DNA from: an uncultured virus (IMG/VR IMGVR_UViG_3300033148_006048)
Lineage: Duplodnaviria > Heunggongvirae > Uroviricota > Caudoviricetes
Reading direction: 5' to 3' (one strand)
Virus record (IMG/VR): IMGVR_UViG_3300033148_006048
Length of the DNA: 64,000 nt
Each line of letters opens with the position of its first letter. The first letter of the stretch is position 1. The position numbers were made by a program, and so were the translations under genes. The notes beneath the pieces are model-generated. The model ran no database searches. It had not been told where the DNA came from and saw only the letters and a program-made list of their open reading frames with translations. Shown one piece after another: positions 4,237 to 63,078 of this stretch.

Positions 4237-5457
4237 TTATCCTTTAATTACAGCTAATGGAGTTAATTCAACTTCAATTTTAACTAAGTCTTTTTGATTT
4301 TCCATTACAACATCAATATCTTTATAAGCAGAACTTGCCTCATCCAAATCTTGTTGATTTCTAATACCATGAATAATTCCTTGCTCGTCTAATTTTCTTT
4401 TTTCTTCTTCGAGATTAAGTTCTTTTCTAGCCTTGCTACGAGACATTCTTCTGCCAGCCCCGTGACTGCAAGAGTTAAAACTATCGGGGTTACCAAGACC
4501 ACGAACAATATAGGACTTGCTTCCCTGTGAGCCAGGTATAATGCCAATAGTATCACTGCTAGCAAGAGTAGCACCCTTACGATGAACCATAACATTTTGA
4601 CCAAAATGATTTTCCATTTTTGCATAGTTATGTGCGATATTAATTATTTCATCAAAATCAATTCCACTAACTCTCTCACCCACTTTTGTTTGACCATCAA
4701 AAGTATCGGCAAATATATTTTGTATTCTTCCCATCATTAATTTTCTATTAGATAAAGCAAAATCAACACAATATTGCATTTCACTTAAATATGCTTGACC
4801 TTCTTTGCTATCTAAGGGCAGGAAAGCTAAATCCCAACTAGGTGGAACTTCACTCTGCCATTTTTTGTTTAACTCCTTAGCCAATTTATTATAATGACTC
4901 GCAACTTTCAATCCGATATTTCTGCTACCGCTATGTATCATAATCCAAATATGCCCATCAGACCCTTTCTGAATTTCAATAAAATGATTACCACCTCCAA
5001 GAGTTCCAATCTGTCTTAATGCTGAGTTAAATTCTTGATTCACAATCATTTCATCTGACTCATCATCAGTCAAGCCATTATTAAACTTACCAATACTTGG
5101 CATTAAGCTTTCATTTTGTTTTTCCTTATGATGACTAAATCCAACAGGTACAGCTTTATGAATCTCGCCCATTATTTTTTTCAATGTATCAACATCTATT
5201 TCAGTCAAAGAAGTCCTAACGGCACACATCCCACAACCAATATCAACACCAACTGCGTTAGGCACGACAACACCTTTAGTAGCCATCACACCTCCAATCG
5301 GCATACCATATCCCTCATGAGCATCCGGCATAATAGCAATATGTTTGAAAGCAAAAGGCAAGTTAGCCAAATTTGAGGCTTGGTCTATTGCCCCGCTTTC
5401 ACAATCATCAAGCCAAAGCTTAATCGGTATTTTATTTTTCGAGATTACTTTTTTCAT
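4237..5457 (-). CDS. rtcB: RtcB RNA ligase
   Basis: MPDAH.G, VGVDIGCG, GTLGGGNHF, IHSGSR, HRKGA, SHGAGR, AYKD motifs all intact. Confidence 0.96.
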   Translation of the reverse strand: MKKVISKNKIPIKLWLDDCESGAIDQASNLANLPFAFKHIAIMPDAHEGYGMPIGGVMATKGVVVPNAVGVDIGCGMCAVRTSLTEIDVDTLKKIMGEIHKAVPVGFSHHKEKQNESLMPSIGKFNNGLTDDESDEMIVNQEFNSALRQIGTLGGGNHFIEIQKGSDGHIWIMIHSGSRNIGLKVASHYNKLAKELNKKWQSEVPPSWDLAFLPLDSKEGQAYLSEMQYCVDFALSNRKLMMGRIQNIFADTFDGQTKVGERVSGIDFDEIINIAHNYAKMENHFGQNVMVHRKGATLASSDTIGIIPGSQGSKSYIVRGLGNPDSFNSCSHGAGRRMSRSKARKELNLEEEKRKLDEQGIIHGIRNQQDLDEASSAYKDIDVVMENQKDLVKIEVELTPLAVIKG

Positions 5458-6914
5458 TTCACTTTAATAACGGAATATCTCTCAGAATTAATCGTCTCAA
5501 GCATAACTTCTTCTGGTGTTTTGTTTTCAACCGCAATCTTAAAGATAACCGGTGACAATCCTGAAACCATTGAAACACCTTGCTCGTTTTTGGTAACTGG
5601 CACATTCTGACCACTTCTAGCATCAACATTCCAAAACACTAAATTAGGTAATTTGTAACCAGCCTCTTTGTACTTGTCCTGAATATGCTGGAAATTAGTA
5701 CAATGGGTACAACAACTATCGAACTCCATGTCTGAAATAATGTAAATAGTCTCTGGCATTTCCTCTGCCGGTGTATTTTTATCTATTGCTGTATTCAAAA
5801 CCAAATCAAATACGGCCTGTAAATTAGTATTCATTCCCCAATCTGCTCTCTCAATGCTATTCATTTTGTCCAGCAAAGTATCACCCTTAACCGCTTGTAA
5901 TTTTGGCCTTTCGCTAAAAGTAATAAAGTAATTCTGAAACTGTCCCTTATTTCTCTCGGCAAAATACAAAGCCAAAGAAACCGAAACTGACATAGGGTCA
6001 CCATACATTGAACCTGAAACGTCCGCAACAACTAAAGCATTCTTGCCCTGCGTATAATCTGGCAACTGATTCCAAAGCGCCTCAAGTGTCTTAGAATAAT
6101 CCTGATTAGCTGTCTTGTAAATCTGGTATGGATACAATGTTTTTGCCTGAATCTTAACTTCTCCCTTCTCGGCCTTTTCAATAAAAGCATTATATCGTTC
6201 CTCGTCATGCTTTTTAAATGCGTTTCGGTAAATTCTAGAAGCCTGACTTGGAACCTGAGAATAATTAATATCGCTCCACTTTTGCGCTGACATCTTTTCT
6301 TCAACTGCCTTAATCTGTTTTCTAATTTTTCTAACCATTTTTCTATATTCAACCTCGCCCAATCCTAACTTCTTAGCCATAAACAAAGCTTTAGCTTTTG
6401 TAGTTCTACTAGAAGCATTAATTGTAGGCAACCATTTTGCCAATAAAGTTGGAGTTTCACTACCTGAATCAACCTTCAACTGTTTGCTAACTAAATCAAA
6501 ACATTTCTGGTTGTCGAAAAATAAATCGTCCCATCTCCCATATTCTGAAACGTGTCCAACAATCTGCTCGAACACTTCCGGAACATCTGTTCCCAACCAT
6601 TCTAAACAATTTCTAAATAAATCTCTCTCTCCTTGTCCGCCTCGAACGTCTCTCAAATAAAATAAAATCCGCACGGCCTTTTCTCTATCCTCGGCAAATG
6701 CCTTTTTGAATAATTCTAAAGCCTGCTCCGGGTTTTTTCTCATTGCCCCGGCTTGCGCATAAAAATCCAAAAGATTTGAACCTGAACGGGTATAAGTAAC
6801 CGCCATGTTCTCGGTCAATCCTTTTGAAGTTTCATCATACATACCATTAATCAAACTGTTGTCTGACTCTGGTACCTTCTTTGGTTCTGGTTTAATTTCG
6901 TTTAAATGTCTCAT
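5454..6914 (-). CDS. DUF2828-family Ro60/TROVE-like protein with C-terminal vWA domain
   Basis: RDVRGG.GER, YGRWDD, AKWLP, LYPY, MIDAS DVSGSM, SDMEFD, VFWNV; ATGA overlap with rtcB. Confidence 0.8.
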   Translation of the reverse strand: MRHLNEIKPEPKKVPESDNSLINGMYDETSKGLTENMAVTYTRSGSNLLDFYAQAGAMRKNPEQALELFKKAFAEDREKAVRILFYLRDVRGGQGERDLFRNCLEWLGTDVPEVFEQIVGHVSEYGRWDDLFFDNQKCFDLVSKQLKVDSGSETPTLLAKWLPTINASSRTTKAKALFMAKKLGLGEVEYRKMVRKIRKQIKAVEEKMSAQKWSDINYSQVPSQASRIYRNAFKKHDEERYNAFIEKAEKGEVKIQAKTLYPYQIYKTANQDYSKTLEALWNQLPDYTQGKNALVVADVSGSMYGDPMSVSVSLALYFAERNKGQFQNYFITFSERPKLQAVKGDTLLDKMNSIERADWGMNTNLQAVFDLVLNTAIDKNTPAEEMPETIYIISDMEFDSCCTHCTNFQHIQDKYKEAGYKLPNLVFWNVDARSGQNVPVTKNEQGVSMVSGLSPVIFKIAVENKTPEEVMLETINSERYSVIKVK

Positions 6915-40744: not shown

Positions 40745-41344
40745 TTTTAATTTTTTTAAATCGTCATCTGTCCAACCCTTCACCGGCCAAAATTTCTTTA
40801 ATACATATGAAAAGCCAAGAAGCTCCCTTTTGCTAATTTTAAATATCTGTCCTAGCGTTGAGTTATGTGAATGCGAAACTGATATGTCTGAAAGATATAA
40901 AAAACTTCTGCCCTTTTTATGCTGATTGAGCTAAACTAATCTTATCTTTGGTTTCCTTAGAATGTTTGTGACCCAAACTTGAACCCGCTGTTGGATTTAT
41001 GTTAAACATATTATCCCACCCAATCTTTTCTTTGTATACATTAATAAATTCTTGTTCTTTTTTTATTAGATTATTCTCTGTACAAAAATATAAAATTCCA
41101 AACTCTAAATTATCTTCACCATGCTTATCCCAAGTATTCTGTAAATAAGCATTATGATGATTACCACATTTTAAAGATTTAACATGCTCTAAAAATCTAC
41201 TTGACAAATCCTTTGCTGAACCAATATATATTTTATTATTTATCAAACTCTTTATATAGTATATCCCAGATTTTTTAACTTTCATCTCCTCTTTTTTTAA
41301 TTTTTTTAAATCGTCATCTGTCCAACCCTTCACCGGCCAAAATT
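40745..41344. repeat. Perfect 50-bp direct repeat (40745-40794 and 41295-41344) flanking a GIY-YIG module
   Basis: Both copies encode FWPVKGWTDDDLKKLK. Confidence 0.9.
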
Positions 41345-42257
41345 GCTCTACAATTTTTGATAAAGGATAGATTTGCTTTCCCCATTTATTCTCCCAGAAT
41401 AAATCTCTAATATATTTCTTTGTTTTTTGTACTACTCTGCCTCTTTGTTCATACGGAAAACTAAAGTCACCACCCTGTGTGCGAAACATATGAGCATACC
41501 AAGTGTCGTAATTAACCAACACTCTGCCACCAGCCAGTCTCGCCTTGGCGGCTACCTCAAGTCCTTGATTCCCCCAACTTCCAGCTTTCTCGTCACAAAG
41601 CTCCCACTCCCAATATTTTTCCCGAGTACTCATAAAACAACTTCCCTGTAAACTCATTGTTTCAGTATAACCATTTTCTTCTAAGCTTTTTTTAAATGCC
41701 GGCCGTTTAGTATAATCGTTGAAATACTGAAAATGCGGTTCAGAATCAAAACAATAAGATTTTGATTGTGGTCGTTCTTTGCCCTTCCAAATCATCTTAC
41801 GCTTTATTTTCTTCGTCTCTCCGCAGTCCGGACATTCTGTTGGTGTTGGACCCTGATATTTTTTCCAACCACATTTATAACATTTCCAGTCAAAAGCCCA
41901 AAGATTCCGCATAACCGGAACTGCCACAACGTCCTCACCAACTTTTTTCATAAAGTCAATCATTTTCCTATCAAATCCTTTGTCAAAGGAGCAATGCGCG
42001 TCAACCTTCATAACATACTTAGCCTTGCTCATTCTAACTGCCATGTTTGCTGTCGCCCGTTGCCCGATTGATTTTGGCACGTAAATTATATTTACCCGTT
42101 CGTTTATTGGAATAGGCGGATTCGCCCATTCCCCATCTAAAACTGCGATAATTTCTGTATCAGCTTCTATATTTTTTAAAATGTCCCCTATCGTCTCACG
42201 CAAGAAAATTTCACAGCGACTCGGTATTACGATACTAAGTTCCATTGTTAATTCCAT
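40917..42257 (-). CDS. GT2 glycosyltransferase fused in frame to a GIY-YIG endonuclease domain
   Basis: SIVIP, DAHC, QGSCF; then GIYYI..N.KIYIGS..R..H and a NUMOD3-like segment. Confidence 0.85.
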   Translation of the reverse strand: MELTMELSIVIPSRCEIFLRETIGDILKNIEADTEIIAVLDGEWANPPIPINERVNIIYVPKSIGQRATANMAVRMSKAKYVMKVDAHCSFDKGFDRKMIDFMKKVGEDVVAVPVMRNLWAFDWKCYKCGWKKYQGPTPTECPDCGETKKIKRKMIWKGKERPQSKSYCFDSEPHFQYFNDYTKRPAFKKSLEENGYTETMSLQGSCFMSTREKYWEWELCDEKAGSWGNQGLEVAAKARLAGGRVLVNYDTWYAHMFRTQGGDFSFPYEQRGRVVQKTKKYIRDLFWENKWGKQIYPLSKIVEQFWPVKGWTDDDLKKLKKEEMKVKKSGIYYIKSLINNKIYIGSAKDLSSRFLEHVKSLKCGNHHNAYLQNTWDKHGEDNLEFGILYFCTENNLIKKEQEFINVYKEKIGWDNMFNINPTAGSSLGHKHSKETKDKISLAQSA

Positions 42258-49480: not shown

Positions 49481-52400
49481 CTAAGGAATGCTGTTTAAGC
49501 ACTTCAAGGCTGTTGCTCTAACAACAGTACCACCGATTCTGTTTACAACTCTACAATTTTGTTATCACAATTTTTTTAATTATTGTTTCACTATATTACT
49601 ATAGTGTTCAGACTATATCATCCCCTGATAAGCAAAAAAGTAATAAACTTTATTGCTTATTACTTCATACATACTTTATTTATTTAATTGCGAATCTATT
49701 GCTTCATTTTCTGTTTAAAATGTTTCTCCCAATATTCTCTATTATGGTTAGCTTTAAGATTACAAGGATTACACAAAGTTAATAGGTTATCCCAATTACA
49801 ATTCTTCTTATCATAATCAATATGGTGGACTGTTAGATAATTTTTTCTTCTTCCTAATCTATCCTTACCTTCTAACTTTAAATCATCATCTGACTTCAAA
49901 CATTCCTGACAAGTATAGTTATCTCTCTCTCTAATCTTTCTTTTCAAACCATTGTTAAATTGAGGACTATAAGGCTCAAATGAACTGCCATTATTCCAAT
50001 ATAGTATGTATGAAGTTGTCAATGTTCAGGAGTGCGGCGCTCGTGGCTATATTATCGCCCCATAAGGACTTATAGCTAGTCGTTGCACCTTCCCAGAAAT
50101 TGCTCTCTGGGCTTGGCTCAGGATTGTCCTTTGCAGGAGTTTCCCTGAATTCACCGCATTTTTAACTATATGTCGCCATATAGTGCCACTAAAGTTAATG
50201 GCTGTCTGGTCTTGCTCGAAAGCTTTTGATTCGTCTTGACTAATCTTAACGGTCATTCGCTTTCGGTCACCAAGATAATAAGCTAGTTTCAAGCAACCAA
50301 AGTAAATCTCGGCTTCTGGTAAGTTATTGTCTTCAATAACTGGATTAGTTATATTATCGCAGAAGCATTTAACTTCTACATCTCATAGTTTCCTATGAGC
50401 TTGGACTATATCATATTGTTTTTTACAAATAAATAAAAGTAACTTTTATGTTACTTCACATATACTTAATTTAATTTATTTTACTAGAATCGCTTTGCTA
50501 TTTTTTTACATAAATCAATAAATTCGTCATGATTTAAAATCCACTTAACACGATTACATACTTCGCAACAAGGAACACAATTTTCTATTGAGTATCCTTT
50601 ACTTGAATCTTTTCTATCAATACCAGAAAATCCATATTTTCCCATTCTACCGCAATAATGACAAGGTTGCTTTGTAATTTCCTCAAATTCATCAATAGTT
50701 AAATTCCAACTGATATTTCTTCTTTTTCTTGTTGCGTCTGCCTTGTAAACAAAATATCTTCCCCTCACTGTCTTCATGTATTCTTTCCGCCATTCTTTAC
50801 ACCTAGCCTTATTTTTTCTGTAATATTCTCTAGTATACTCCTTTTCCTTTTCTCTATTTTTCTGATAATACTTTCTTTTTTCAATTCTACTGCACTCTTT
50901 ACAGTAATAACTAAATCCACTATTTCTTTTACCTTTGCTTCTATAAAAATTATCAGCATTAAGGTCTAATACTTTTTTACATCTTTGACATCTTCTCTTT
51001 CCTTGTTTGATTAGGTTTTCTTTTCTTTGTTTATTATCGTATGACATATAGTTATACACAATTATATCTTATAATATTATTGTATATAATACAACAAGAA
51101 ATGTCAAGTATATGTGTTTATTTGTAAAGAACAATGACGGCGCTCGTGGCTACATTACTGTCCACATAAGGACTCGGTAGCTAGTCTCTGAACCTTCCCA
51201 AAGATTGCTCTCTGGGCTTGGCTGCTGATTGCCCTCGCCTTAAACGTTAGGGTTTTCCAGCAATTCACCGTCTTTTCTATCAATCTCACGACTGATAGGG
51301 GCATCCAGTTTAAATACCCATAAATGGTTGAAGGCTGACCGGGTGATGGACTATCCATCCAAATATATCTGTTATTGCTATCTTTAACTTTTCGAAGTTC
51401 TCTGATGTTATTCTTATGAACAAAGAAAGTACAATCAGGTCTATTTCTATACTTAGAAGGTAGCAAATAAATTAGGTCAATGATGTCATCAAAACCTAAA
51501 TTACCAGCAACAGCTTGACACTGAATACCAAGACCACCTGAAGCGTAACCAGTTGGCTGGCCTACACCAGTACCAACAGTAATTACTCTGTCTTCTTCTA
51601 AACCGATTTCCTCTGCGAATAAACCAATAATGTGCTGTACAATATCAACAGTATCGCAATCTTCAATTAGTTCATCCGTGGCATAAAGACAATTTTGTTA
51701 TCGTAGATTTTTAATTTCTACTTCTCTGCGTTACCGCAGAGTTCAGACTATATCATCCCCTTTTAAAACTCACTTATTTACGCCGATAGCGATATTTTGT
51801 ATAATATAGAAAATATGCTATAATGACTATATAATTATTAACAGTAAAATTATGAACAAAAACAGTCTGAAGAATCTAACTCATCGATTTCAGAAAGGAC
51901 ATAAAACTTGGAATAAAGGTTTAACTAAGGAAACCGATAAACGAATCAAGAAATATGCTGAAGCTAAAATGGGAGAAAATCATCCTTTATGGAAAGGCGG
52001 TAGAGCTAAAGTTACTGGAGGTTACATAAAAATTAAAATGCGAAACCATCCTGATGTTACTAGTGAAGGTTATGTCTTAGAACATCGTCTTGTAATGGAG
52101 AAAAAATTGGGACGGCGATTAAAGCCATTCGAAGAAGTCCATCATAAAAACGGTATAAAAGATGATAACCGACCATCTAATCTAGAACTTGTCATTAAAA
52201 CTAAACATTGCGGTGAAATTAAGTGTCCTTACTGTCAAAAATTATTTAAGATTAAGTGAGTTGTAATGTACGGGGAACGGCGCTCGTGGGTCTATTATAT
52301 TCTCCTGTGCGGAGTTTCAAGACCTAGTCGTTGAACCTTCATCTGCCATTTAGACAGAAGCTTGGCTGCTGATTGTCCTACTCTGTAGGAGTTCCCAGCA

Positions 52401-54837
52401 ATTCACCGTTTTTTTAATTGCATTTTTCAATACAATGCGACTCTTTTTAAGTGCGTTAATCGCGGCACATTTATAGGCAGTTAGAGTATGTTCAGTATAG
52501 GTAGCAGTAGTACAATTTTGTTATCGCAAGGGCTCTTTATCCCTTGCTTCACCAGTTTTATTTATAGCTGGTGTTCAGACTATATCATCCCCAGTAAGCA
52601 AAAAAAGTAGTTTTGCTTACTACTTCATATATACTATATTTTTAGTTGTCTATTCTATTTCAACTTTTTTTCCAATTCCCTAATTCTCTCTTGTAATTTT
52701 ATTTCAAAAGTATGATTCTCGTGATTATGAACATTGAATTCTGAACTCCACCTTTCCATCTACCATTATATTTACCATTCTTTCTTTTACTATTACACTT
52801 ATCATTACAGTAGATTCCTCTACCTCTATTATAATCTCTTGGCAAAATCTCAAAATTTTTACCACAATATAAACATTTCATCACATATCTGAATACCCTC
52901 TTTCCTTTAGGTTTATACCTTTTAACAATTATTCTTTTGTTTATTGAATTACCCATAATTATAAAGTAAATGGACAGATAAATCAAATGAGTTATCCACA
53001 ACAGTCCATCAAGTAGTATATATGAAGTTGTCAATGTTCAGGGGGACGGCGCTCGTGGAGCCATTACTGTCCCATAGGGACTCGGGCTCTAGTCGTTGAA
53101 CCTTCTATCCAGTTGCCTGAATAGCTTGGCTGCTGATTACCCTCGCAAGGGCTTCCCAGCAATTAACCGTCTTTTCTACAAGACTTGAACAAATCTTGTA
53201 GCCATTATTACTAGTGGATTTCGCGGCTCTCTCATCTGTCCAGTACACTCGTGGACCGTCAACTAATCCCGGAATCTTCATCACATCCCGTTTCATAGGG
53301 ATTACGGTAACTCGAGAACGCATGTGTGGCATTTCTTCTAAATCCCGAATAATTTCTGCTCGGAATTCCAATTATGTTATCGTGGTTTTTTTAATTACCA
53401 CTTCTATATGTCTCCATATAGTTCAGACTATATCATCCCCTTACAAGCAAAAAAGTAGCTTTTGCTTGAGCTACTTCATACACGTTAACTAATTTTTTAT
53501 TTTATTTACTCTCTAGTGTTATATTTTTTATGGCACGGAATATCACATAATGTTTTACCATTATCAATATCCCATAACTCTTTACAATTCAATGCTTGTT
53601 CAAAAGTTTCAATCTTGTTTTCAGTCCAGATTTTCGAGAAAGACTTCTTATGATGCGCTACTAATTTCTTTCCTCTGACTCCACAATCTTGACAAGTCCA
53701 ATTATCTCGCTTAAAAACTGCTTTTATCCAGTCACGATACTTCCAACAATGCCTGACCTTTTTAACAAGCGGGGTTCTCCCATCAACATAACTCGGATTT
53801 TTCTTACCTGTCATCTTGCCTCTATGAGCCTCACTCATATGTTCTCTGTATTTCGGCCTTTGCCAAAGCAGTTTAGTCTTGTTATTTTTTCGCTGTTTCT
53901 CTTTAGTCTCTTCTGTATGTTTTTTGCCAAGCATTCCGACTACACCTATTTTATTATACATTCTAGTCTTTTCAGCAGTTCTTTTAAGGCGGTCATCTGT
54001 CTCCTTAGTTAATCCTTTACTCCAAGGAATCTGACCTTTATGACCTAAACTCACTCTTTTTCTTTGTGTTAATGTCATTTTTGAACCTTTTCTCATATAC
54101 CTTAATTATATAGTATACTCAGCAAAAAATCAAGCAATTATTCACACTAGAGCTAACGTGTATGAAGTTGTAATGAACGGGGGTCGGCGCTCTTGGAGAT
54201 ATTATTGTTGGGACTCAATCTCTAGTCGTTGCACCTTCCTGCGAACCTATGCCCTCGCAGGCTTGGCTCAGGATTACCCTCGGCTTTACGTTAGGGCTTC
54301 CCCTGAATTCACCGACTTTTCTTACAATCATTATGACTGTAAGCGACTAATTCCTTAATCGGGAAATAGATATCCACCTTCGGAAGCAGTACCTTCAGAT
54401 AAAGCTTTCAAAGCGGCATGGTCGGCTCGAACCATAGCTTGGAAAAATCCAACAATTTTTTCTTTGACAGTCATTTCTGAAACATCTTTTTTCATCAACT
54501 TTTCAAGGTCGATTAAACTAGTAACTTTCTTTTCTTTAGTCATTGTATCCTTTCTAAGGGATTTAAGGACTTTTTCCTTAATAACTTCTGGGTCTAGCTT
54601 GGCCATAATCTTCTCAGCAACTTCGTCAACTTTTTCGTCTAGTTTTTCTTCTTCCTCTTCCTTTCCTTCACCAGCTTCTTCTTTGCCGGCTTCTTCTTCA
54701 ACTTTTTCTTCCTCTTCTTTTTCCTCTTCTTCCTCAACAGCTTCTTCTTCGTTTTTTTCTTCCTCTTTGTCTACACCTTCTTCCTGTTCCTTTTTAGAGT
54801 AGTAAACTACTCCGTCAGGACCTGTAATTGGGCTCAT
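49481..54837 (-). CDS. HK97-fold major capsid protein, 427 aa, six exons: 54837-54358, 53368-53214, 52512-52459, 51689-51316, 50345-50198, 49553-49481
   Basis: Exons sum to 1284 nt and join in frame ([51 protein letters not shown]); follows the prohead protease. Confidence 0.93.
49554..50197 (-). mobile_element. Group I intron 5 (644 nt)
   Basis: P1 GCCAU/GUGGC, P10, AAUCCUGAGC, GACUA/UAGUC P7, ends AUAACAAAAUUG. Confidence 0.92.
49696..50022 (-). pseudogene. N-terminally truncated HNH endonuclease in intron 5
   Basis: [21 protein letters not shown]; no ATG or promoter, reading frame begins inside the stem arm. Confidence 0.7.
50484..51059 (-). CDS. HNH-type homing endonuclease in intron 4
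   Basis: CHYCG..GIDR.DS.KGY..ENCVPCC..CN..K. Confidence 0.88.
   Translation of the reverse strand: MYNYMSYDNKQRKENLIKQGKRRCQRCKKVLDLNADNFYRSKGKRNSGFSYYCKECSRIEKRKYYQKNREKEKEYTREYYRKNKARCKEWRKEYMKTVRGRYFVYKADATRKRRNISWNLTIDEFEEITKQPCHYCGRMGKYGFSGIDRKDSSKGYSIENCVPCCEVCNRVKWILNHDEFIDLCKKIAKRF
51079..51107 (-). promoter_or_regulatory. Intron-internal promoter for the intron 4 endonuclease
   Basis: TTGACA-17nt-TACAAT. Confidence 0.75.
51690..52458 (-). mobile_element. Group I intron 3 (769 nt)
   Basis: P1 GCGAU/GUCGC, P10 AAAGA/UCUUU, core motifs, ends AUAACAAAAUUG. Confidence 0.92.
51852..52259 (+). CDS. HNH endonuclease encoded antisense within intron 3
   Basis: [35 protein letters not shown] at 51816-51824. 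Confidence 0.9.
52699..52956 (-). pseudogene. C-terminally truncated homing endonuclease in intron 2
   Basis: CLYCG..YC..KC..WKGG, then no HNH core. Confidence 0.65.
52958..53000 (-). promoter_or_regulatory. Intron-internal promoter with an upstream DnaA box
   Basis: TGTGGATAA-5nt-TTGATT-17nt-TATAAT. Confidence 0.7.
53506..54096 (-). CDS. HNH endonuclease with NUMOD3 repeats in intron 1
   Basis: [18 protein letters not shown]; paralogue of 25730-26269. Confidence 0.9.
   Translation of the reverse strand: MRKGSKMTLTQRKRVSLGHKGQIPWSKGLTKETDDRLKRTAEKTRMYNKIGVVGMLGKKHTEETKEKQRKNNKTKLLWQRPKYREHMSEAHRGKMTGKKNPSYVDGRTPLVKKVRHCWKYRDWIKAVFKRDNWTCQDCGVRGKKLVAHHKKSFSKIWTENKIETFEQALNCKELWDIDNGKTLCDIPCHKKYNTRE
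54105..54133 (-). promoter_or_regulatory. Intron-internal promoter for the intron 1 endonuclease (near-leaderless)
   Basis: TTGATT-17nt-TATAAT-8nt-ATG. Confidence 0.7.
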
Positions 54838-54839
54838 GT

Positions 54840-57413
54840 TTATTTTTTCTTCCTGCTAACTTTATTTTTTCTTAGGGTGGCACTTGCATTAGCAACAAGT
54901 ACCTTCAAGACTCTCTGCGCGACCTTGTCAACAACGACATCGCTGGTAACAATTTTGCGGGTGCGTCTTGAGGTTCGACTTTTATCATCGTCACCGCCTT
55001 TCAACCTCTCTGGAGTTTGAACTTTTTTTGGCTCCTTATCTACGTCTGGTTTAGTAGACTCAGTAGCTTCCAAAAGCTTCTCCAGGGCAGTGACGGCTTC
55101 TTTTGACGCCATAACAGCGTCGGTAATTATTCTTTTATTTTTACCTGATATTACTCTGCCTTCTTTTTGGCTCGCATCTATTGCCTTTTCAATCATTCCT
55201 TTTATTGTTTTGGTTCTTTCCTTCTCTTTTTCAATTTCTCCAATTAACTCTCTCTGCTTCTGTAATTTCTTGAGGCTTACAGCCAGTGCCTTATCCATAC
55301 TAATTTCTTCGTTCTTGGCAATCATTACGGCGTAGTCTATGAGTTCCCTGATGTAAGCTCCTGAGAATCCTTTCGTCTTCTCCACGGTATCGTCTAATGT
55401 CTTAGTTTCAATCTTGTCTGTCCATTTTGTAATCATCTCCCTGCGGACACTGCTATTCGGTAGTTCGAAGTTAAGCACATCGTGGAATCTTCCAGGTCGG
55501 TCCAACAGGGCCTTGGGAAGATTCTCTGGAAAATTAGTCGTGAGAATCGTGACTATGCCCTTGTTTTCTCTAATCCCATCCATTTCAATCTTGAGCGTGT
55601 CAATCGCACTACCCCTAAGCCAACTATCGATATCCTCAATAAACAATACTGTCGGAGCTAAATCTCTTGCCAATTTGAACGAGAGCCCCAAGAGAGAACC
55701 GCTAGACATCCTCTCAAAGTCCTTAGAGCTAACCCAAATGAAAGTTGAATCAGCTTCTTTCATTATCACTTTCCCCGAATATGTTTTCCCTGTTCCGGGC
55801 TCACCCATAAACAATAAACCTCTACTTCTCAATTCATCTTTTTCTTTATTTAAGACTTTTATCGATTTCATTATCAATCCCTTAGTTTCTTTCTCAAGAA
55901 TCACATCATCCCAAGTCTTCTCTGACTTAGGCAAAAATTCACCACTAATCGCGAACTTCTCGCCTCTGAGGAAGTTATACTCCCTCACCCACTTATGAAT
56001 ATCTCCCAACAGACTCTTATTAACTTCTTTCTTAGCTGAATTATTGATTATCGTCACATCTAATCCTGACCAAGTGGGACTAAACTTTATGATTAAAGCA
56101 TTCTCACCATTACTCTTGTAGAAATTCATCCCGGCGATAAGGAAATCATCAGACTTCTCGGAGTTGAGTTTGATTACCTCGTACACTGGAGGCACTTCTC
56201 CACCGTCATCAGCAAAACTACGAGTATCAACTAATTCGAATCTATTCATCAACTCCTTAAACCCAGCGAGATAGGTTCCCAATAGTGGGCTAGGAATTAA
56301 GTAATTGTTAAGGAAAACATCCTTAATTTTACAATCAAGAAACTTAGTATAAATCTCATACTCAAAAGTAGCTGGTTTACTCTCAACTTTCTCAATGTCA
56401 AATACTTTAGACAAACTCGGATTCCATCTTTTAGTAACTTGTTCTCCCATTTCACGCCCCTGTCCTGGCCTCTCAACTCGTCTCATTTTACCTCCACACT
56501 TTGGACACTTGATATCTACGCAGTGCTTATCAGAAGTTACCTTATACCTACAATCAAGACATTCACAGCTATAAGTCTGTTTCTCCTCTTCTTTACCAGT
56601 CGCTGGCTCGAACTTTATACCTTTGTGCGCCTTACAATGACTCCTCGCCGAGGATTCAGTCCAGGTATCTTTCGAATAACGATAACCCTGTTCCTCCCAT
56701 TTTGAATGGTCATCTTTTCTGCGACAGGTGAGAATACTGTATTTTTTCCCATCACTTGTCCTACTCGTTCTGCGACAAGTATCATATTTGCCTGGGTCTT
56801 TTAACCTACAAGAATGCTCGTTGGGGTAAGGCTTTTCCACTATTTCTTCTTTTTCTGATGTTTTACATTCTTCCCCTTCACATTTTTTAGTCCAATCCTC
56901 AATATCCTTAATCGTCTTGTCTTCCAATTTGTCGGCCTTCTCAATCCCCTTCTCAACCGTAGTCAACGCCTCGGCATTGGCGGGAACGGCGACGGCTGAA
57001 ACCTCCAACAGCTCGTTAAAGGTCTTGACTTTCTTCTTGCCATCTTTCTCCTCCTCGTCCTCCTCATCTTCGGATTTCGGGATATAACCGACGCTCCACG
57101 CCTTAAGCACTCCTCCAAGATACATCTCCTTTAAGTCTCTCGCTAACTGCGTAAACGTATGGAAAACCGGCTCGAAAACAAGCCGCTTCTGTTTATCTAT
57201 GTGAATATCCTTCGCAACGCCAATAGTATACTGTGGCTTATAATCATGTCCCGCTTGTAGTACAGGATTCTTCTTGAAGTTTTTTAAGTTCCAATCTTCC
57301 GCCTTTAGTGAATCGCCAATTCTGTCTTCTGATTCAGTTGAAGCAATAGCAATCAGCTTTCCGCCTTTTTTTTCGGTATGCGCTTGTACGTGTTTAAGAT
57401 TTTTCTTCGACAT
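54840..57413 (-). CDS. HK97-type prohead protease with inserted domains including an AAA+ ATPase
   Basis: N-terminal NPV...H, WSVGY, LLEVSAV.VPAN; GEPGTGKT, FIEDID, RPGRF; KEGRVIS tail. Confidence 0.88.
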   Translation of the reverse strand: MSKKNLKHVQAHTEKKGGKLIAIASTESEDRIGDSLKAEDWNLKNFKKNPVLQAGHDYKPQYTIGVAKDIHIDKQKRLVFEPVFHTFTQLARDLKEMYLGGVLKAWSVGYIPKSEDEEDEEEKDGKKKVKTFNELLEVSAVAVPANAEALTTVEKGIEKADKLEDKTIKDIEDWTKKCEGEECKTSEKEEIVEKPYPNEHSCRLKDPGKYDTCRRTSRTSDGKKYSILTCRRKDDHSKWEEQGYRYSKDTWTESSARSHCKAHKGIKFEPATGKEEEKQTYSCECLDCRYKVTSDKHCVDIKCPKCGGKMRRVERPGQGREMGEQVTKRWNPSLSKVFDIEKVESKPATFEYEIYTKFLDCKIKDVFLNNYLIPSPLLGTYLAGFKELMNRFELVDTRSFADDGGEVPPVYEVIKLNSEKSDDFLIAGMNFYKSNGENALIIKFSPTWSGLDVTIINNSAKKEVNKSLLGDIHKWVREYNFLRGEKFAISGEFLPKSEKTWDDVILEKETKGLIMKSIKVLNKEKDELRSRGLLFMGEPGTGKTYSGKVIMKEADSTFIWVSSKDFERMSSGSLLGLSFKLARDLAPTVLFIEDIDSWLRGSAIDTLKIEMDGIRENKGIVTILTTNFPENLPKALLDRPGRFHDVLNFELPNSSVRREMITKWTDKIETKTLDDTVEKTKGFSGAYIRELIDYAVMIAKNEEISMDKALAVSLKKLQKQRELIGEIEKEKERTKTIKGMIEKAIDASQKEGRVISGKNKRIITDAVMASKEAVTALEKLLEATESTKPDVDKEPKKVQTPERLKGGDDDKSRTSRRTRKIVTSDVVVDKVAQRVLKVLVANASATLRKNKVSRKKK

Positions 57414-57473: not shown

Positions 57474-58283
57474 TTAAATTTCTATGTAAATTGGTGACAA
57501 ATCACAACGGCAATTTGGGTGAAGTGGTGCGCCCGGAACATCGTCAAAATCAATGTTCAAAACTGCACCTTCCGCGCTAGTCACCGTGTCTCCTTTAGTA
57601 AAATAAGTATCTCCAAGCGGTGCTACCTTTCCTTCCAGTACGGCACAAAACGGGCAAGCGTCCGGCTCGGTAACCCAAACCTTCGCCTCAACAACTCCTG
57701 AATCAATGAAAGCCTGTTCTGTCGCCTGAACCGAAGTCCTAATACTCTCTGTCCGGGCAATCATAGTTGCTCTTGTTGTTTTAACATTCTCGAAAACGTC
57801 TTCAACTCTATTTGAAAGTTCGTATATACTTTCGTTAAGTTCAATCCCTTCTGTCAGTTGTTTTCCAATAGCTATATTTGTCGTCTCCGTGGCTGACTTT
57901 GAAAATTTCGTAGTTCTTTTTTCAATAAACCCAACTGCTACCGGCGAAGTCCCATCTCCGTCAATATCAACTCCTAAAAAATCAAATGTTTCATTCTCAC
58001 TCTGCTCGAACAAATCCTGTAAAATCGGCATTACCACCGGTAAAGTTCGGTCAAACTCTTCCTTTTGTTTTAATAATACCGCGTCAATGTTAATCGCTTT
58101 TATCGCCTTCTGGCTTCTCAGTCTTTTCTTTGTCAGTTTTCTCTGCTCTTCGAACACTTTGTCCACCAGACTTTTCTTTAGTATCTGGTAGTAATGTTCC
58201 GCCACTCTCACTTTTATCTCCCAAAATCTCCTTTTCATCGCTTCCGTTGGTTGTGTTGTTTTTAATTTCTTCTTTGATGGCAT
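57474..58283 (-). CDS. MuF / SPP1 gp7-like minor head protein
   Basis: RA.MIARTE, K.W, CPFC, PLHPNCRC. Confidence 0.9.
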   Translation of the reverse strand: MPSKKKLKTTQPTEAMKRRFWEIKVRVAEHYYQILKKSLVDKVFEEQRKLTKKRLRSQKAIKAINIDAVLLKQKEEFDRTLPVVMPILQDLFEQSENETFDFLGVDIDGDGTSPVAVGFIEKRTTKFSKSATETTNIAIGKQLTEGIELNESIYELSNRVEDVFENVKTTRATMIARTESIRTSVQATEQAFIDSGVVEAKVWVTEPDACPFCAVLEGKVAPLGDTYFTKGDTVTSAEGAVLNIDFDDVPGAPLHPNCRCDLSPIYIEI

Positions 58284-59676
58284 CTTTAATTCCCTTTTTT
58301 AAATCTTTTTTAACAATTAAACCACGCATAATATCCTTCTTCGTTTTCTCTTTCGTCTTCTTCAAAATTTCTTCAACCTTCTTGTCTGCTAGTCTCTCAA
58401 GTTTAGTTCGAGCCTGTAAATGTCTAACCCTATCCTGATAATTATTAGCACCCTTAATTTTTTGTTCAGGTGTGCTTCCAATCGGTACAACATTAAGCGG
58501 TAAATAAATACTATCCCCACCAGAAACAAGCGGTGGTAAACCTTCAAGTTTTCTAACTTCATTTCGTGACATCCAGCCTGCTCCAATAGCCTTTTCGTAA
58601 TAATTCACCTTTGCTTCCTCGTCTTCTGGAATCGGGTTTTCATAATCTAAAAATAAATTCTCCCCGTCATTAAACATCGGAACCAAAAATTCATTAAGCT
58701 GTTGAACAATTCTCTCCATCTTAGGCTGAATTGTCCATCGTGCGAATACATATTGCGCAACCTTCGCACTAGCGAAGTTAGTACCTTCTGTTTGCGAAAC
58801 AATCGCTTTTGGTACACGGAACATACCTAAAATTTTATCCCGTGTCATTTTTTGTTGTGCCTCGAATCCCATTTCCTGTTGACTAAAGCCGAATTTATCC
58901 AGCTTCATACCACCAAATAGAACCATAATCTGATGGGCTTTATCTAAGCCCTCAAAGTTTTTCCTAATGCTAGCCTTTAATTTCTTTTTTTGTTCATCGG
59001 TCATCTGCGGGTCTTCCACAGTTAAAACCGAATTAGGCGTAGCGTTCTGCTTAAAAAATCGCCAATTCCACTCTTCCGAATAGTTATCCACATCTACTGT
59101 TCGTGAAGCGGCCTCCAACGTACCAAGACCTCTAAGCGGTTTAAGTGGGTTTGGATACTTTAAAAATATAACCTCGTCTGGTTTAAGTGTTACCTTCTCG
59201 TGCTGGCCAACATCATACTTATAGCCTTTAATAATTGTTTTTTTGTCCGGTATAATTTCAAGTCTGTCTGGCCGTAAAAAGTAAATAGCCGTCACTTCGC
59301 CATTACTCTTCTCCAAAAACCAAGGCGCTTCACCAACCAGCTCTAAATAAGCTGAAGTTAGCCAAAATTGGTCAAATTTTGTAGTATAATCGTTAACCTT
59401 ATAAAGTAAATCTAAGATGGCATGCTCCTTAACTTCCTCAACCTTATCCCCCTTCTTCCTGTAAAGCTTAAGGTCAATAGCCGCGATTTCGTCCGAAATA
59501 GCGCTAACACAAGTAAAGACCCACCCCTTCATCTCAGCAAGGTAGTCGGCCTGTTTGTCGGAAGATAATCCTTGATACCCATAAGCCGCAGTTTCATAAC
59601 CAGTCGGATTAGACCTGTCTGGTGTAGCCGTTGCCTTTTTGCGGAACGGGCTGATTAAATTTGTAAGAAAACTCAT
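58090..59676 (-). CDS. HK97-family portal protein
   Basis: V..CV..I, GEA, P...RGLG, FF.QNA.P, F.VP, M..NEVR..EGLPP..GGD. Confidence 0.93.
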   Translation of the reverse strand: MSFLTNLISPFRKKATATPDRSNPTGYETAAYGYQGLSSDKQADYLAEMKGWVFTCVSAISDEIAAIDLKLYRKKGDKVEEVKEHAILDLLYKVNDYTTKFDQFWLTSAYLELVGEAPWFLEKSNGEVTAIYFLRPDRLEIIPDKKTIIKGYKYDVGQHEKVTLKPDEVIFLKYPNPLKPLRGLGTLEAASRTVDVDNYSEEWNWRFFKQNATPNSVLTVEDPQMTDEQKKKLKASIRKNFEGLDKAHQIMVLFGGMKLDKFGFSQQEMGFEAQQKMTRDKILGMFRVPKAIVSQTEGTNFASAKVAQYVFARWTIQPKMERIVQQLNEFLVPMFNDGENLFLDYENPIPEDEEAKVNYYEKAIGAGWMSRNEVRKLEGLPPLVSGGDSIYLPLNVVPIGSTPEQKIKGANNYQDRVRHLQARTKLERLADKKVEEILKKTKEKTKKDIMRGLIVKKDLKKGIKDAIKEEIKNNTTNGSDEKEILGDKSESGGTLLPDTKEKSGGQSVRRAEKTDKEKTEKPEGDKSD

Positions 59677-62490: not shown

Positions 62491-63078
62491 TTATTTAATT
62501 ATTTTATCAATTATTCCAAACTTTAATGCTTGTTTAGTAGTTATAAAATCATCAATATTTGAATCCATATAATACTTAATCTGCTCAACTGTCATTTTAG
62601 TTTTTTCTTTTATTATGTCCATTAAAATTTTATTATAATAATCGGATGATTTTACATAACTTTTAGCTTGTGTATTTTTTTGATATCCTAAATCATAAGC
62701 AATTTCATGTATTAAAATATCTGAATGCTCAAATGCTTTTCTCTTGTGACCACAAATCAATAATATTGCTCCTGCGCTATATGCTTTACCAAGAACAATT
62801 GTATTAATTTGTTTTTTAGAGTTTTTTATCAAATCAATTAATGGAACTAATGCCATAACTTGACCACCATTACTATTAATATAAATAGTAATTTCTTTTG
62901 TATTATTATCTTTAATCATTCCATCTAATTTGAAAAAAATATTTTCCATCATTTCATCATTAAATTCAGAATTAATAATAACAATTCCCTTTTTTTCTAG
63001 CCCAGTTCTATTTTTGATATTTTCTTCAATTATCTTTTTTTCTAACTCTTCTTTATTTTTATCAATTGATTCTATCAT
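62491..63078 (-). CDS. clpP: ClpP-like serine protease
   Basis: YINS.GG, G.A.SAG, H and D triad, A..FGIID.I. Confidence 0.85.
   Translation of the reverse strand: MIESIDKNKEELEKKIIEENIKNRTGLEKKGIVIINSEFNDEMMENIFFKLDGMIKDNNTKEITIYINSNGGQVMALVPLIDLIKNSKKQINTIVLGKAYSAGAILLICGHKRKAFEHSDILIHEIAYDLGYQKNTQAKSYVKSSDYYNKILMDIIKEKTKMTVEQIKYYMDSNIDDFITTKQALKFGIIDKIIK

What the first reader, a model, noticed from the sequence alone, without database searches (positions are those of the whole stretch)
49481..54837. Major capsid gene split by five group I introns
Seen: six exons join in frame into a 427-aa HK97-type capsid protein. Each of the five gaps has P1, P10, P3, P4 and P7 pairings and a shared 3' tail, and about 76% of the locus is intron; exon 3 is only 54 nt. 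Known: most described phage group I introns sit in DNA-metabolism, terminase or lysin genes, usually one to three per gene. Inference: the most abundant virion protein needs five splicing events, which could delay or throttle capsid production.
Basis: partly seen in the sequence, partly recalled or inferred. Interest (0 to 1): 0.9.

Follow-up and report, generated by a model that had tools for sequence, protein, structure and literature searches.

The report
Phage capsid gene with five introns
The only major capsid gene in this uncultured tailed phage is cut into six pieces by five related self-splicing (group I) introns, and its relatives carry the same intron family at many sites in the same gene, so this is an extreme case of a known kind.

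Summary
Observation confirmed. On the minus strand, 54837-49481, six exons (480, 155, 54, 374, 148, 73 nt) join in frame into a 427-aa HK97-family capsid protein. It aligns without gaps at all five junctions to 11 intronless homologues, and 76.0% of the locus is intron. All five gaps hold group I cores: three Rfam RF00028 hits lie above the gathering score and two just below. The cores share compensatory P3-P7.2 and P9 pairs.

Close relatives lack introns 1, 3 and 5 exactly at the predicted junctions. The same intron family occupies about 14 sites in this capsid family, with up to six introns in one gene.

Each intron carries an HNH-type endonuclease gene in P8. One gene is antisense and one has an internal deletion.

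Two colinear junctions are non-canonical: C instead of U before intron 2, and A instead of the terminal G of intron 4. Both recur in diverged relatives.

Capsid-gene introns, including a capsid gene split into five fragments, are already published, and this scan has noted capsid genes with 10 and 16 introns elsewhere. The throttling idea is untested. No RNA data were available.

The parts
54358..54837 (-). Exon 1 (480 nt, 160 aa): acidic N-terminal region plus the start of the capsid domain. It ends after a U that sits in a U.G pair of P1. The intron begins with an in-frame TAA.
53369..54357 (-). Intron 1 (989 nt), group I, canonical U/G ends. It is absent from relative L012 exactly at this junction.
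   Evidence: RF00028 48.8 bits; R1 161.7 bits; L012 contiguous
53506..54096 (-). Intron-1 endonuclease gene (196 aa, NUMOD3 + HNH), in the P8 loop.
   Evidence: Orthologues at 54-62% identity sit in introns one codon upstream in L075, L061 and L084.
53214..53368 (-). Exon 2 (155 nt). The colinear junction ends it on a C opposite an A in P1.
52513..53213 (-). Intron 2 (701 nt), group I, C at -1 and G at omega. It is present at the same site in L012 (900 nt).
   Evidence: RF00028 43.4 bits partial; R1 189.1 bits
52655..52956 (-). Remnant of the intron-2 HNH gene. Residues 1-74 and 139-164 of the 164-aa L012 version survive, in two frames. The middle part is deleted.
52459..52512 (-). Exon 3 (54 nt).
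51690..52458 (-). Intron 3 (769 nt), group I, canonical U/G ends. It is absent from L012 at this junction.
   Evidence: RF00028 59.8 bits; R1 170.9 bits
51852..52259 (+). Intron-3 HNH endonuclease gene (135 aa), on the strand opposite to the capsid gene.
   Evidence: Pfam HNH_3 6.6e-11; phrog_20891 1.8e-31. Orthologues occur in the same-site introns of L030 (antisense) and of L036, L072 and L084 (sense).
51316..51689 (-). Exon 4 (374 nt), the largest conserved capsid piece.
   Evidence: Pfam PF05065 75.8 bits, profile positions 81-205
50346..51315 (-). Intron 4 (970 nt), group I, U at -1 but A at the omega position under the colinear junction. Relative L015 shows the same.
   Evidence: RF00028 66.3 bits; R1 179.6 bits
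50484..51059 (-). Intron-4 endonuclease gene (191 aa, endonuclease VII / HNH-like).
   Evidence: phrog_1035 5.4e-26; 87% identical copy in L015
50198..50345 (-). Exon 5 (148 nt).
   Evidence: Pfam PF05065 26.7 bits, profile positions 206-260
49554..50197 (-). Intron 5 (644 nt), group I, canonical U/G ends. It is absent from L015 at this junction.
   Evidence: RF00028 59.3 bits; R1 180.4 bits
49696..50022 (-). Intron-5 HNH endonuclease gene (108 aa as listed from a TTG inside P8).
   Evidence: Pfam HNH 3e-5; phrog_119 1.1e-10
49481..49553 (-). Exon 6 (73 nt, including the stop at 49483-49481).

Best explanation
This is the phage's single HK97-family major capsid gene. It lies just downstream of the portal and prohead-protease genes and is interrupted by five mobile group I introns of one family. 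The family has the phage-type core with P7.1/P7.2 and carries its ORF in the P8 loop.

Inferred mechanism: the late transcript must lose all five introns by the usual two-step guanosine-initiated self-splicing to give a 427-aa capsid protein. Each intron carries, or carried, its own HNH-type homing endonuclease. That enzyme cuts intronless alleles of related phages during co-infection, and repair then copies the intron in. This would explain why close relatives differ by presence or absence of introns at exactly these junctions, and why the same endonuclease type tracks the same site across phages.

Shown here: exon colinearity, ribozyme cores with covariation, intronless alleles, and the link between endonuclease type and site. 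Inferred: actual splicing, homing activity, and the use of the two non-canonical junction nucleotides (C at -1 of intron 2, A at omega of intron 4).
For: Capsid identity:
- Exon pieces match Pfam PF05065 colinearly (profile positions 8-62, 81-205, 206-260).
- The exon-4 search returned 135 relatives at E<=1e-3; the 120 listed each carry PF05065 in the precomputed Pfam column, and several sources name them HK97-family major capsid protein.
- Homologue P0002 hits solved HK97-family capsids at 2.5e-25.
- There is no second capsid copy in the window.
- Portal and S78 protease genes lie upstream.

Junctions:
- The 427-aa product aligns without gaps at the junctions to 11 homologues.
- L012 (about 89% aa identity) reads straight through the intron-1 and intron-3 sites.
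- L015 (about 91% aa identity) reads straight through the intron-5 site.

Ribozymes:
- RF00028 hits.
- ORF-less family members in relatives score 97.2, 91.2 and 78.9 bits.
- My core model finds 49 hits in 573 kb, all on the gene strand.
- On 40 distinct cores, 93.6% of cells pair against 70.2% in shuffles (0 of 500 shuffles reach it). 30 of 37 pairs show double changes, and slid controls give 32-47%. That alignment is fitted to the model.

Endonucleases.
- The intron-1 type sits in introns at the adjacent codon in 3 other phages.
- The intron-3 type sits in 4 of 4 other introns at that site.

Constraint: the intron-4 ribozyme parts are 94.9% and 96.4% identical to L015, against 85.6% for its endonuclease gene and 80.5-82.8% for the flanking exons.
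Against: - There is no RNA evidence of splicing.
- Two of five Rfam hits are below the curated cut-off (48.8 and 43.4 bits against 50).
- The colinear junction of intron 2 needs a C rather than the near-universal U at -1.
- The colinear junction of intron 4 needs an A rather than the near-universal terminal G. The P7 G-C pair that would bind it looks unchanged (my reading).
- In-frame alternatives exist: +7 aa for intron 2, and +4 or -2 aa for intron 4.
- Only intron 1 has a stop right at the 5' splice site. The upstream frame runs 34-50 codons into the cores of introns 2-5, which could interfere with folding if translation follows transcription closely.
- The identical copy (L001) may not be an independent sample.
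Confidence: 0.9

Rival explanations
1. The five elements are group I introns, but one or both odd junctions are not the colinear ones. Intron 4 would ligate at a nearby G (12 nt upstream, adding 4 aa, or 6 nt downstream, removing 2 aa). Intron 2 would cleave after the U 21 nt downstream, adding 7 aa. The capsid protein would then carry small insertions or deletions.
For: - All these alternatives stay in frame.
- Terminal G and U at -1 are the rule in this family: 21 of 28 resolved introns are U/G.
- No compensating change is seen in the P7 G-binding pair (my reading).
Against: - None of 11 homologues has an indel at either place.
- P10 and P9.0 covary and place omega at the A. The window pairs CUGGAU with AUCCAG, and L035 pairs a GGGG run with CCCC. 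J7/9 GAGC goes with a CUG/CUA tail, and GAAC goes with UUG.
- The 21 nt after the C site form P2, with a compensatory C-G to U-A change in L012. They are only 4 of 7 identical as codons, against about 89% aa identity in the exons.
- A second intron, in L019 two codons upstream, also needs C at -1 opposite A.
Confidence: 0.3
2. The introns have a regulatory role: serial splicing, or translation running into the introns, times or limits capsid synthesis.
For: - Capsid protein output depends on five splicing events.
- Four introns lack an early in-frame stop.
- One intron has a non-G terminal nucleotide that might slow exon ligation.
Against: - Close relatives make do with fewer introns at the same sites, and most of the capsid-gene relatives searched show none (64 of 91 loci have no hit). 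The introns are therefore dispensable for regulation.
- The presence/absence pattern and the endonuclease-site association fit selfish homing.
Confidence: 0.15
3. The locus is a decaying, non-functional capsid gene in a defective element or assembly, riddled with insertions.
For: - One endonuclease gene is internally deleted.
- One intron has A at the omega position.
- The sequence comes from a metagenomic contig of unknown viability.
Against: - All six exons are intact and in frame, with no stops, and are 55-65% identical to homologues over the full length.
- It is the only capsid gene in a window with a full head-tail gene set.
- The ribozyme parts are more conserved than the exons between diverged relatives.
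Confidence: 0.04

Closest known systems
Capsid (MCP) gene of a crAss-like Zeta-group phage genome (Yutin et al. 2021, PMC7886860; passages read)
   Same: A phage major capsid gene split into five fragments. [quoted passage not shown]
   Different: That case is a crAss-like phage with four interruptions, identified through protein domains. Here there are five interruptions in an HK97-family (PF05065) gene of an unrelated phage. All five have ribozyme cores and mapped junctions, and intronless alleles were found in close relatives.
Mycobacteriophage LittleE capsid intron (Pope et al. 2013, PMC3706429; passages read)
   Same: A spliced intron in an HK97-type capsid gene, shown by RT-PCR and N-terminal sequencing. 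Its endonuclease gene lies on the opposite strand, like intron 3 here. Its splice site lies within a mature N-terminal peptide that holds a GGY..P motif, like the hotspot around intron 1 here (my inference from the quoted peptide).
   Different: It is a single intron with a LAGLIDADG-like ORF, in a high-GC host phage, and its type is only 'most likely group I'.
Staphylococcus phage Twort orf142 (Landthaler & Shub 1999; seen only as a title in a reference list)
   Same: Several group I introns in one phage gene (three).
   Different: Three against five. Further details are recalled, not read.
Faustovirus E12 capsid gene (PMC6247863; abstract read)
   Same: A viral major capsid gene scattered over many exons, five of whose introns are group I.
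   Different: It is a giant virus of amoebae with a double-jelly-roll capsid protein, 13 exons over 17 kb, and spliceosome-like introns as well.
Jug jumbo gut phages (PMC12880540; passages read)
   Same: Essential phage genes such as terL are split into 2-3 fragments by group I introns with HNH and other endonucleases. Splicing was confirmed by metatranscriptome reads for 37 of 76 predicted introns.
   Different: The introns there are spread over many genes (18.5 per genome). Here all five detected in 64 kb sit in one gene.

Membership tests
Group I catalytic intron (Rfam RF00028) | Conserved core helices (P3-P8, with the P4-P6 domain) recognised by the family model | tested here: met
   Three hits above the gathering score and two just below it. 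P3, P4, P5, P6 and P7.1/7.2 are recovered with compensatory changes. ORF-less relatives score 59-97 bits.
Group I catalytic intron (Rfam RF00028) | 5' splice site after a U that forms a U.G wobble in P1 | tested here: inconclusive
   Met for introns 1, 3, 4 and 5. At the colinear junction, intron 2 has C opposite A. The same holds in L012, and in a different intron in L019.
Group I catalytic intron (Rfam RF00028) | Terminal guanosine (omega G) at the 3' splice site | tested here: inconclusive
   Met for introns 1, 2, 3 and 5. Intron 4 has A at the aligned omega position, as does L015. Same-site introns in L035 and L084 have G.
Group I catalytic intron (Rfam RF00028) | P7 with a G-binding G-C pair formed between the core and the 3' part | tested here: met
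   GACUA and UAGUC are complementary in all five introns. L051 has the doubly compensated GCAUA/UAUGC. This is my reading; it was not scored by a tool.
Group I catalytic intron (Rfam RF00028) | Precise excision restores the host reading frame | tested here: met
   The product aligns without gaps to 11 homologues. Intronless alleles exist at the intron-1, -3 and -5 sites in L012 and L015.
Group I catalytic intron (Rfam RF00028) | Self-splicing with exogenous guanosine | not testable with these tools
   No RNA run could be listed. This needs in vitro splicing or RT-PCR.
Subgroup IA (phage-type, P7.1/P7.2 present) | Extra helices P7.1/P7.2 between P7 and P3' | tested here: met
   Two nested helices at alignment columns 158-193 of A2, with compensatory changes. 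No subgroup-specific models were available, so IA2 versus other IA types was not tested.
HK97-family major capsid protein (Pfam PF05065) | Match to the family profile over its length, in order | tested here: met
   Exon 4 scores 75.8 bits and exon 5 26.7 bits, both above the cut-off of 24.2. Exon 2 scores 21.6 bits, just below it. Profile positions 8-62, 81-205 and 206-260 are colinear. Homologue P0002 hits solved HK97-family capsids.
HNH homing endonucleases | HNH-type nuclease domain encoded inside the intron | tested here: met
   Introns 1, 3, 4 and 5 have Pfam or PHROG HNH / endonuclease VII hits. The intron-2 copy lacks the middle part. Cleavage activity was not tested.

The most novel reading that the evidence does not exclude
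Intron 4 may be a natural group I intron that ligates exons after a terminal A instead of the near-universal G. This state is kept in an essential capsid gene in two phages whose exons differ by about 18% in nucleotides. Its position is fixed by covarying P9.0 and P10 pairings, and there is no visible change in the P7 guanosine-binding pair. Together with C.A in place of U.G at the 5' splice site of intron 2 (and of an unrelated-site intron in L019), this would mean that the family tolerates, in nature, splice-site nucleotides that I recall only from mutant ribozymes.
Probability: 0.4. Interest if true: 0.7.

Novelty: new member of a known kind. Interest (0 to 1): 0.55.

Why it matters
Five group I introns in one phage gene is more than in the published phage cases I could read: four interruptions in a crAss-like capsid gene, three in Twort orf142.

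The comparative set found here gives a natural record of homing. It shows about 14 insertion sites in one capsid family and up to six introns per gene. Endonuclease type tracks the site, while ribozyme cores do not.

Practically, such genes are mis-annotated as capsid fragments (for example the truncated 250-262-aa products P0001, P0003 and P0013). Capsid-based phage classification will therefore miss or truncate them.

If intron-encoded nucleases act as weapons between co-infecting phages, as shown for PhiPA3 (PMC11620839; abstract start seen in a search listing), a capsid gene loaded with five of them would be a strong competitive marker.

The two non-canonical splice-site nucleotides are cheap to test and bear on ribozyme specificity.

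Tried and rejected
- Sequencing runs: none was listed for the locus and no RNA holder was listed.
- Own genome: the assembly is not held. The nearest record, G001, shares 59% of sampled words but does not cover the capsid locus.
- Rfam on L012 found nothing even at E<=1, although my core model scores its intron 2 at 177.7 bits. A blank from Rfam's filters is therefore not informative here.
- Conserved-target idea: the five sites lie at the 65th-93rd percentile of local conservation. This is a modest trend only, and other family sites lie at the 12th-38th percentile.
- Terminator-like hairpin plus U-run after the endonuclease genes: I read it as part of a conserved distal P8 hairpin, with a compensatory change in L012, and not as a terminator. 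This is not tested.
- Promoter-like hexamers: the five best of 37 matches lie just upstream of the endonuclease genes of introns 1-4. They are consensus matches only, and the intron-2 match abuts the ATG too closely to serve it.
- Core tree: drawn without support values and used only descriptively. The pairwise identities carry the point.
- The first automated splice-site tallies were flawed by tie handling and were replaced.
- In one search my intron-2 ORF query was one base out of frame. replace that row.
- Inteins, or separately translated capsid fragments, were rejected. The gaps are not in frame, the exons lack their own starts, one exon is 18 codons long, and every gap has a ribozyme core.
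- Literature: searches. I found no paper describing this phage family's introns or a natural terminal-A group I intron. One search was a loose search and does not show absence.
Full report
WHAT IS THERE

The window is a stretch of an uncultured tailed phage with nearly all genes on the minus strand. Annotated genes include the portal (58090-59676), a prohead S78 protease fused to an AAA+ ATPase (54840-57413), tail genes, a tape-measure gene, and replication and RNA-repair genes. The finding lies directly downstream of the protease gene.

A stop-to-stop ORF list and a direct reading of the minus strand show six open pieces. Pfam assigns three of them to colinear parts of the Phage_capsid profile PF05065:
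- exon 2: profile positions 8-62, 21.6 bits (just below the 24.2 cut-off);
- exon 4: positions 81-205, 75.8 bits;
- exon 5: positions 206-260, 26.7 bits.

A search with exon 4 among longer proteins returned 135 relatives at E<=1e-3 (120 listed). Most are 340-430 aa and are up to 65% identical over exon 4. Several are named HK97-family major capsid protein by their sources.

JUNCTIONS

tblastn of six intronless homologues against the locus gives six colinear segments. Joined by coordinates, the exons are 54837-54358, 53368-53214, 52512-52459, 51689-51316, 50345-50198 and 49553-49481.

This model gives 1284 nt and 427 aa with a single terminal stop. It aligns to 11 full-length homologues with no gap at any of the five junctions. 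Introns make up 76.0% of the 5357-nt locus.

Homologue P0002 matches solved HK97-family capsids at E=2.5e-25. No other capsid copy is present in the window.

THE GAPS ARE GROUP I INTRONS

Rfam RF00028 matches all five gaps on the gene strand. Three hits exceed the gathering score of 50 (66.3, 59.8 and 59.3 bits). Intron 1 scores 48.8 bits full-length, and intron 2 scores 43.4 bits over model positions 47-158. In the whole window at E<=0.1, 6 of 7 matches are RF00028, and all 6 are inside this gene.

The five 5' cores align at 68% mean column identity. RNAalifold recovers P3, P4, P5, P6 and P7.1/P7.2, and 18 of 37 pairs keep pairing through changes on both sides.

The five 3' parts share the P7 3' strand, a P9 hairpin, a second hairpin and a 13-nt tail. 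11 of 16 pairs are compensated.

In each intron the ORF sits in the P8 loop (my reading). The P7.1/P7.2 helices place the family in the phage-type subgroup IA. I could not test IA2 specifically.

INTRONLESS ALLELES IN RELATIVES

An IMG/VR contig (L001) carries the identical five-intron locus. It may not be independent.

Two diverged relatives are informative:
- L012 is about 89% identical in protein. It reads straight through the intron-1 and intron-3 junctions exactly as predicted, and it has intron 2 at the same site.
- L015 is about 91% identical. It has intron 4 (970 nt) and reads straight through the intron-5 junction.

The window's gene therefore differs from its nearest known relatives by presence or absence of three introns at the predicted nucleotides.

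THE WIDER FAMILY

One metagenome scan gave 80 more capsid loci. A covariance model of the five cores (R1) was searched over the window plus 91 loci, 573 kb in all. It found 49 hits at E<=1e-3, all on the gene strand: 5 in the window and 44 in 24 of the 91 loci. A 3'-part model (R2) found 50 hits, and together the two models mark 27 of 91 loci. Some loci are duplicates: L081/L084, L069/L074, L047/L048 and probably L075/L078.

Of the 44 hits in relatives:
- 39 map inside the capsid gene;
- L041:1749 also maps inside it;
- L078:5 lies at a contig edge and could not be mapped;
- 3 weak hits (34-38 bits: L047, L048, L077) lie a few hundred bases downstream of the capsid gene.

In our residue numbering the occupied sites are about 149, 155, 159, 160, 177, 209, 211, 230, 355, 369, 377, 396, 404 and 423.

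L084, from a 99-kb contig, has six cores and six 3' parts in its capsid gene. Five introns is therefore not the maximum even in this family.

On the 40 distinct cores, 93.6% of cells form standard pairs against 70.2% in shuffles (0 of 500 shuffles reach it). 30 of 37 pairs show double changes, and slid controls give 32-47%. The alignment is fitted to the model, which favours it. ORF-less family members score 97.2, 91.2, 78.9, 67.0 and 59.4 bits against RF00028.

ENDONUCLEASES AND HOMING

- Intron 1 encodes a 196-aa NUMOD3 + HNH protein.
- Intron 3 encodes a 135-aa HNH protein on the opposite strand.
- Intron 4 encodes a 191-aa endonuclease VII / HNH-like protein.
- Intron 5 encodes a 108-aa HNH protein.
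- Intron 2's gene keeps residues 1-74 (88% identical) and 139-164 (85% identical) of the intact 164-aa HNH gene of L012, in two frames. The middle is deleted, and the intron is 199 nt shorter.

Endonuclease type follows the site. Intron-1-type genes (54-62% identical, full length) sit in introns one codon upstream in L075, L061 and L084. Intron-3-type genes (62-75% identical) sit in all 4 other introns at site 230, antisense in L030 and sense in L036, L072 and L084.

Ribozyme cores do not follow the site. Intron 5's core is 77% identical to intron 4's but only 58-63% identical to the other site-404 introns. Intron 3's nearest core (81%) is at site 149 in L084. I read this as endonuclease-driven homing with exchange of ribozyme modules. 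The exchange is an inference.

TWO NON-CANONICAL JUNCTIONS

For 33 non-duplicate introns with both ends found, I asked which junction restores colinearity. The result was 21 U/G, 4 C/G, 2 U/A, 1 unresolved and 5 with no stop-free join (neighbouring introns were too close). One of the four C/G cases, L047, has a score too low to trust.

Intron 2 and its L012 copy need C at -1, opposite an A in a P1 helix conserved in both. L019, at a different site two codons upstream, shows the same. The in-frame alternative for intron 2 is a U 21 nt downstream, which adds 7 aa. That U lies in a hairpin that matches P2 of the other introns and carries a compensatory C-G to U-A change in L012. No homologue has an insertion there. 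From memory, a C.A wobble can replace U.G in mutant ribozymes; I did not retrieve a paper on this.

Intron 4 and its L015 copy end in A where 46 of the other 48 aligned 3' parts show G in the tail; the two L047/L048 rows lack the tail. Same-site introns in L035 and L084 end in G. Two covarying pairings fix the position:
- The guide sequence pairs over 6 bp with the first six exon-5 bases in the window, and a different guide-exon pair forms in L035.
- The two bases before omega pair with J7/9, and this pairing covaries (GAAC with UUG; GAGC with CUG or CUA).

The P7 G-C pair appears unchanged. The only in-frame G alternatives add 4 aa or remove 2 aa.

Between the window and L015, the intron-4 ribozyme parts are 94.9% and 96.4% identical. 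The endonuclease gene is 85.6% identical and the flanking exons 80.5-82.8%. The ribozyme with its terminal A is therefore conserved, not decaying. Which junction is used cannot be settled without RNA or protein data.

Capsid production requires all five excisions. Nothing here shows that this throttles synthesis. Relatives with fewer or no introns show that the introns are dispensable.

Only intron 1 has a stop at its 5' end. The upstream frame runs 34-50 codons into introns 2-5, which could make splicing sensitive to translation. This is an inference.

A benefit through endonuclease-mediated competition between co-infecting phages is plausible by analogy with PhiPA3 (PMC11620839; abstract start seen in a search listing).

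WHAT IS KNOWN

- Capsid-gene introns are published for LittleE, and for Tuc2009 as cited there (PMC3706429; passages read).
- A crAss-like capsid gene split into five fragments is published (PMC7886860; passages read).
- Faustovirus has 13 capsid-gene exons (PMC6247863; abstract read).
- Intron-dense jumbo phages are published (PMC12880540; passages read).
- This scan's own unchecked notes list capsid genes with 10 and 16 group I introns in other genomes.

This is therefore a well-supported new member of a known kind, with a useful comparative set and two unusual splice-site nucleotides worth a bench test.

Noticed in passing
window 54840-57413 (-): An 857-aa protein fuses a prohead S78 serine protease domain (residues 86-160) to an AAA+ ATPase domain (residues 533-650), directly upstream of the capsid gene. 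A second, ClpP-like head-maturation protease gene lies at 62491-63078.
   Followed up: no
window 57474-58283 and 58090-59676 (-): Two overlapping ORFs match consecutive parts of one portal profile (phrog_2662 positions 54-473 and 492-707). The portal gene may be read through a frameshift, or may be fused to or split from a MuF-like head-morphogenesis domain.
   Followed up: no
window 4237-6914 (-): An RtcB-type RNA ligase gene (phrog_1075, 2.4e-124) lies next to a 486-aa 'RNA-binding protein' gene (phrog_850, 2.3e-147). This looks like an RNA-repair pair in the phage.
   Followed up: no
window 40917-42257 (-): A 446-aa ORF among the tail genes has a C-terminal third that matches homing endonucleases, including a GIY-YIG type (phrog_314, 2.5e-23). 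No group I core was found nearby.
   Followed up: no
L084 3238-8021 (a 99-kb metagenome contig): The capsid gene of this more distant relative carries six introns of the same family, three of them within about 30 codons around the GGYLFP motif.
   Followed up: partly
L047 1987-2283, L048 5472-5768, L077 1649-1867: Weak hits of the intron core model (34-38 bits) lie a few hundred bases downstream of the capsid gene, with an intron-5-type HNH gene beside them. This may be a diverged intron in the next gene.
   Followed up: no
proteins P0001, P0003, P0013: Database 'capsid proteins' of 250-262 aa from long contigs start at internal methionines. They end by reading into a group I core (tails such as ...VNCW...ISSQA...), so public gene calls truncate intron-split capsid genes.
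   Followed up: partly
window 53452-53477, 52590-52630, 49625-49670 (-): A conserved hairpin with a U-run follows the endonuclease ORF in introns 1, 2 and 5, with a similar one in intron 4. One copy is scored as terminator-like. L012 shows a compensatory change, so it is probably a structural part of distal P8.
   Followed up: partly
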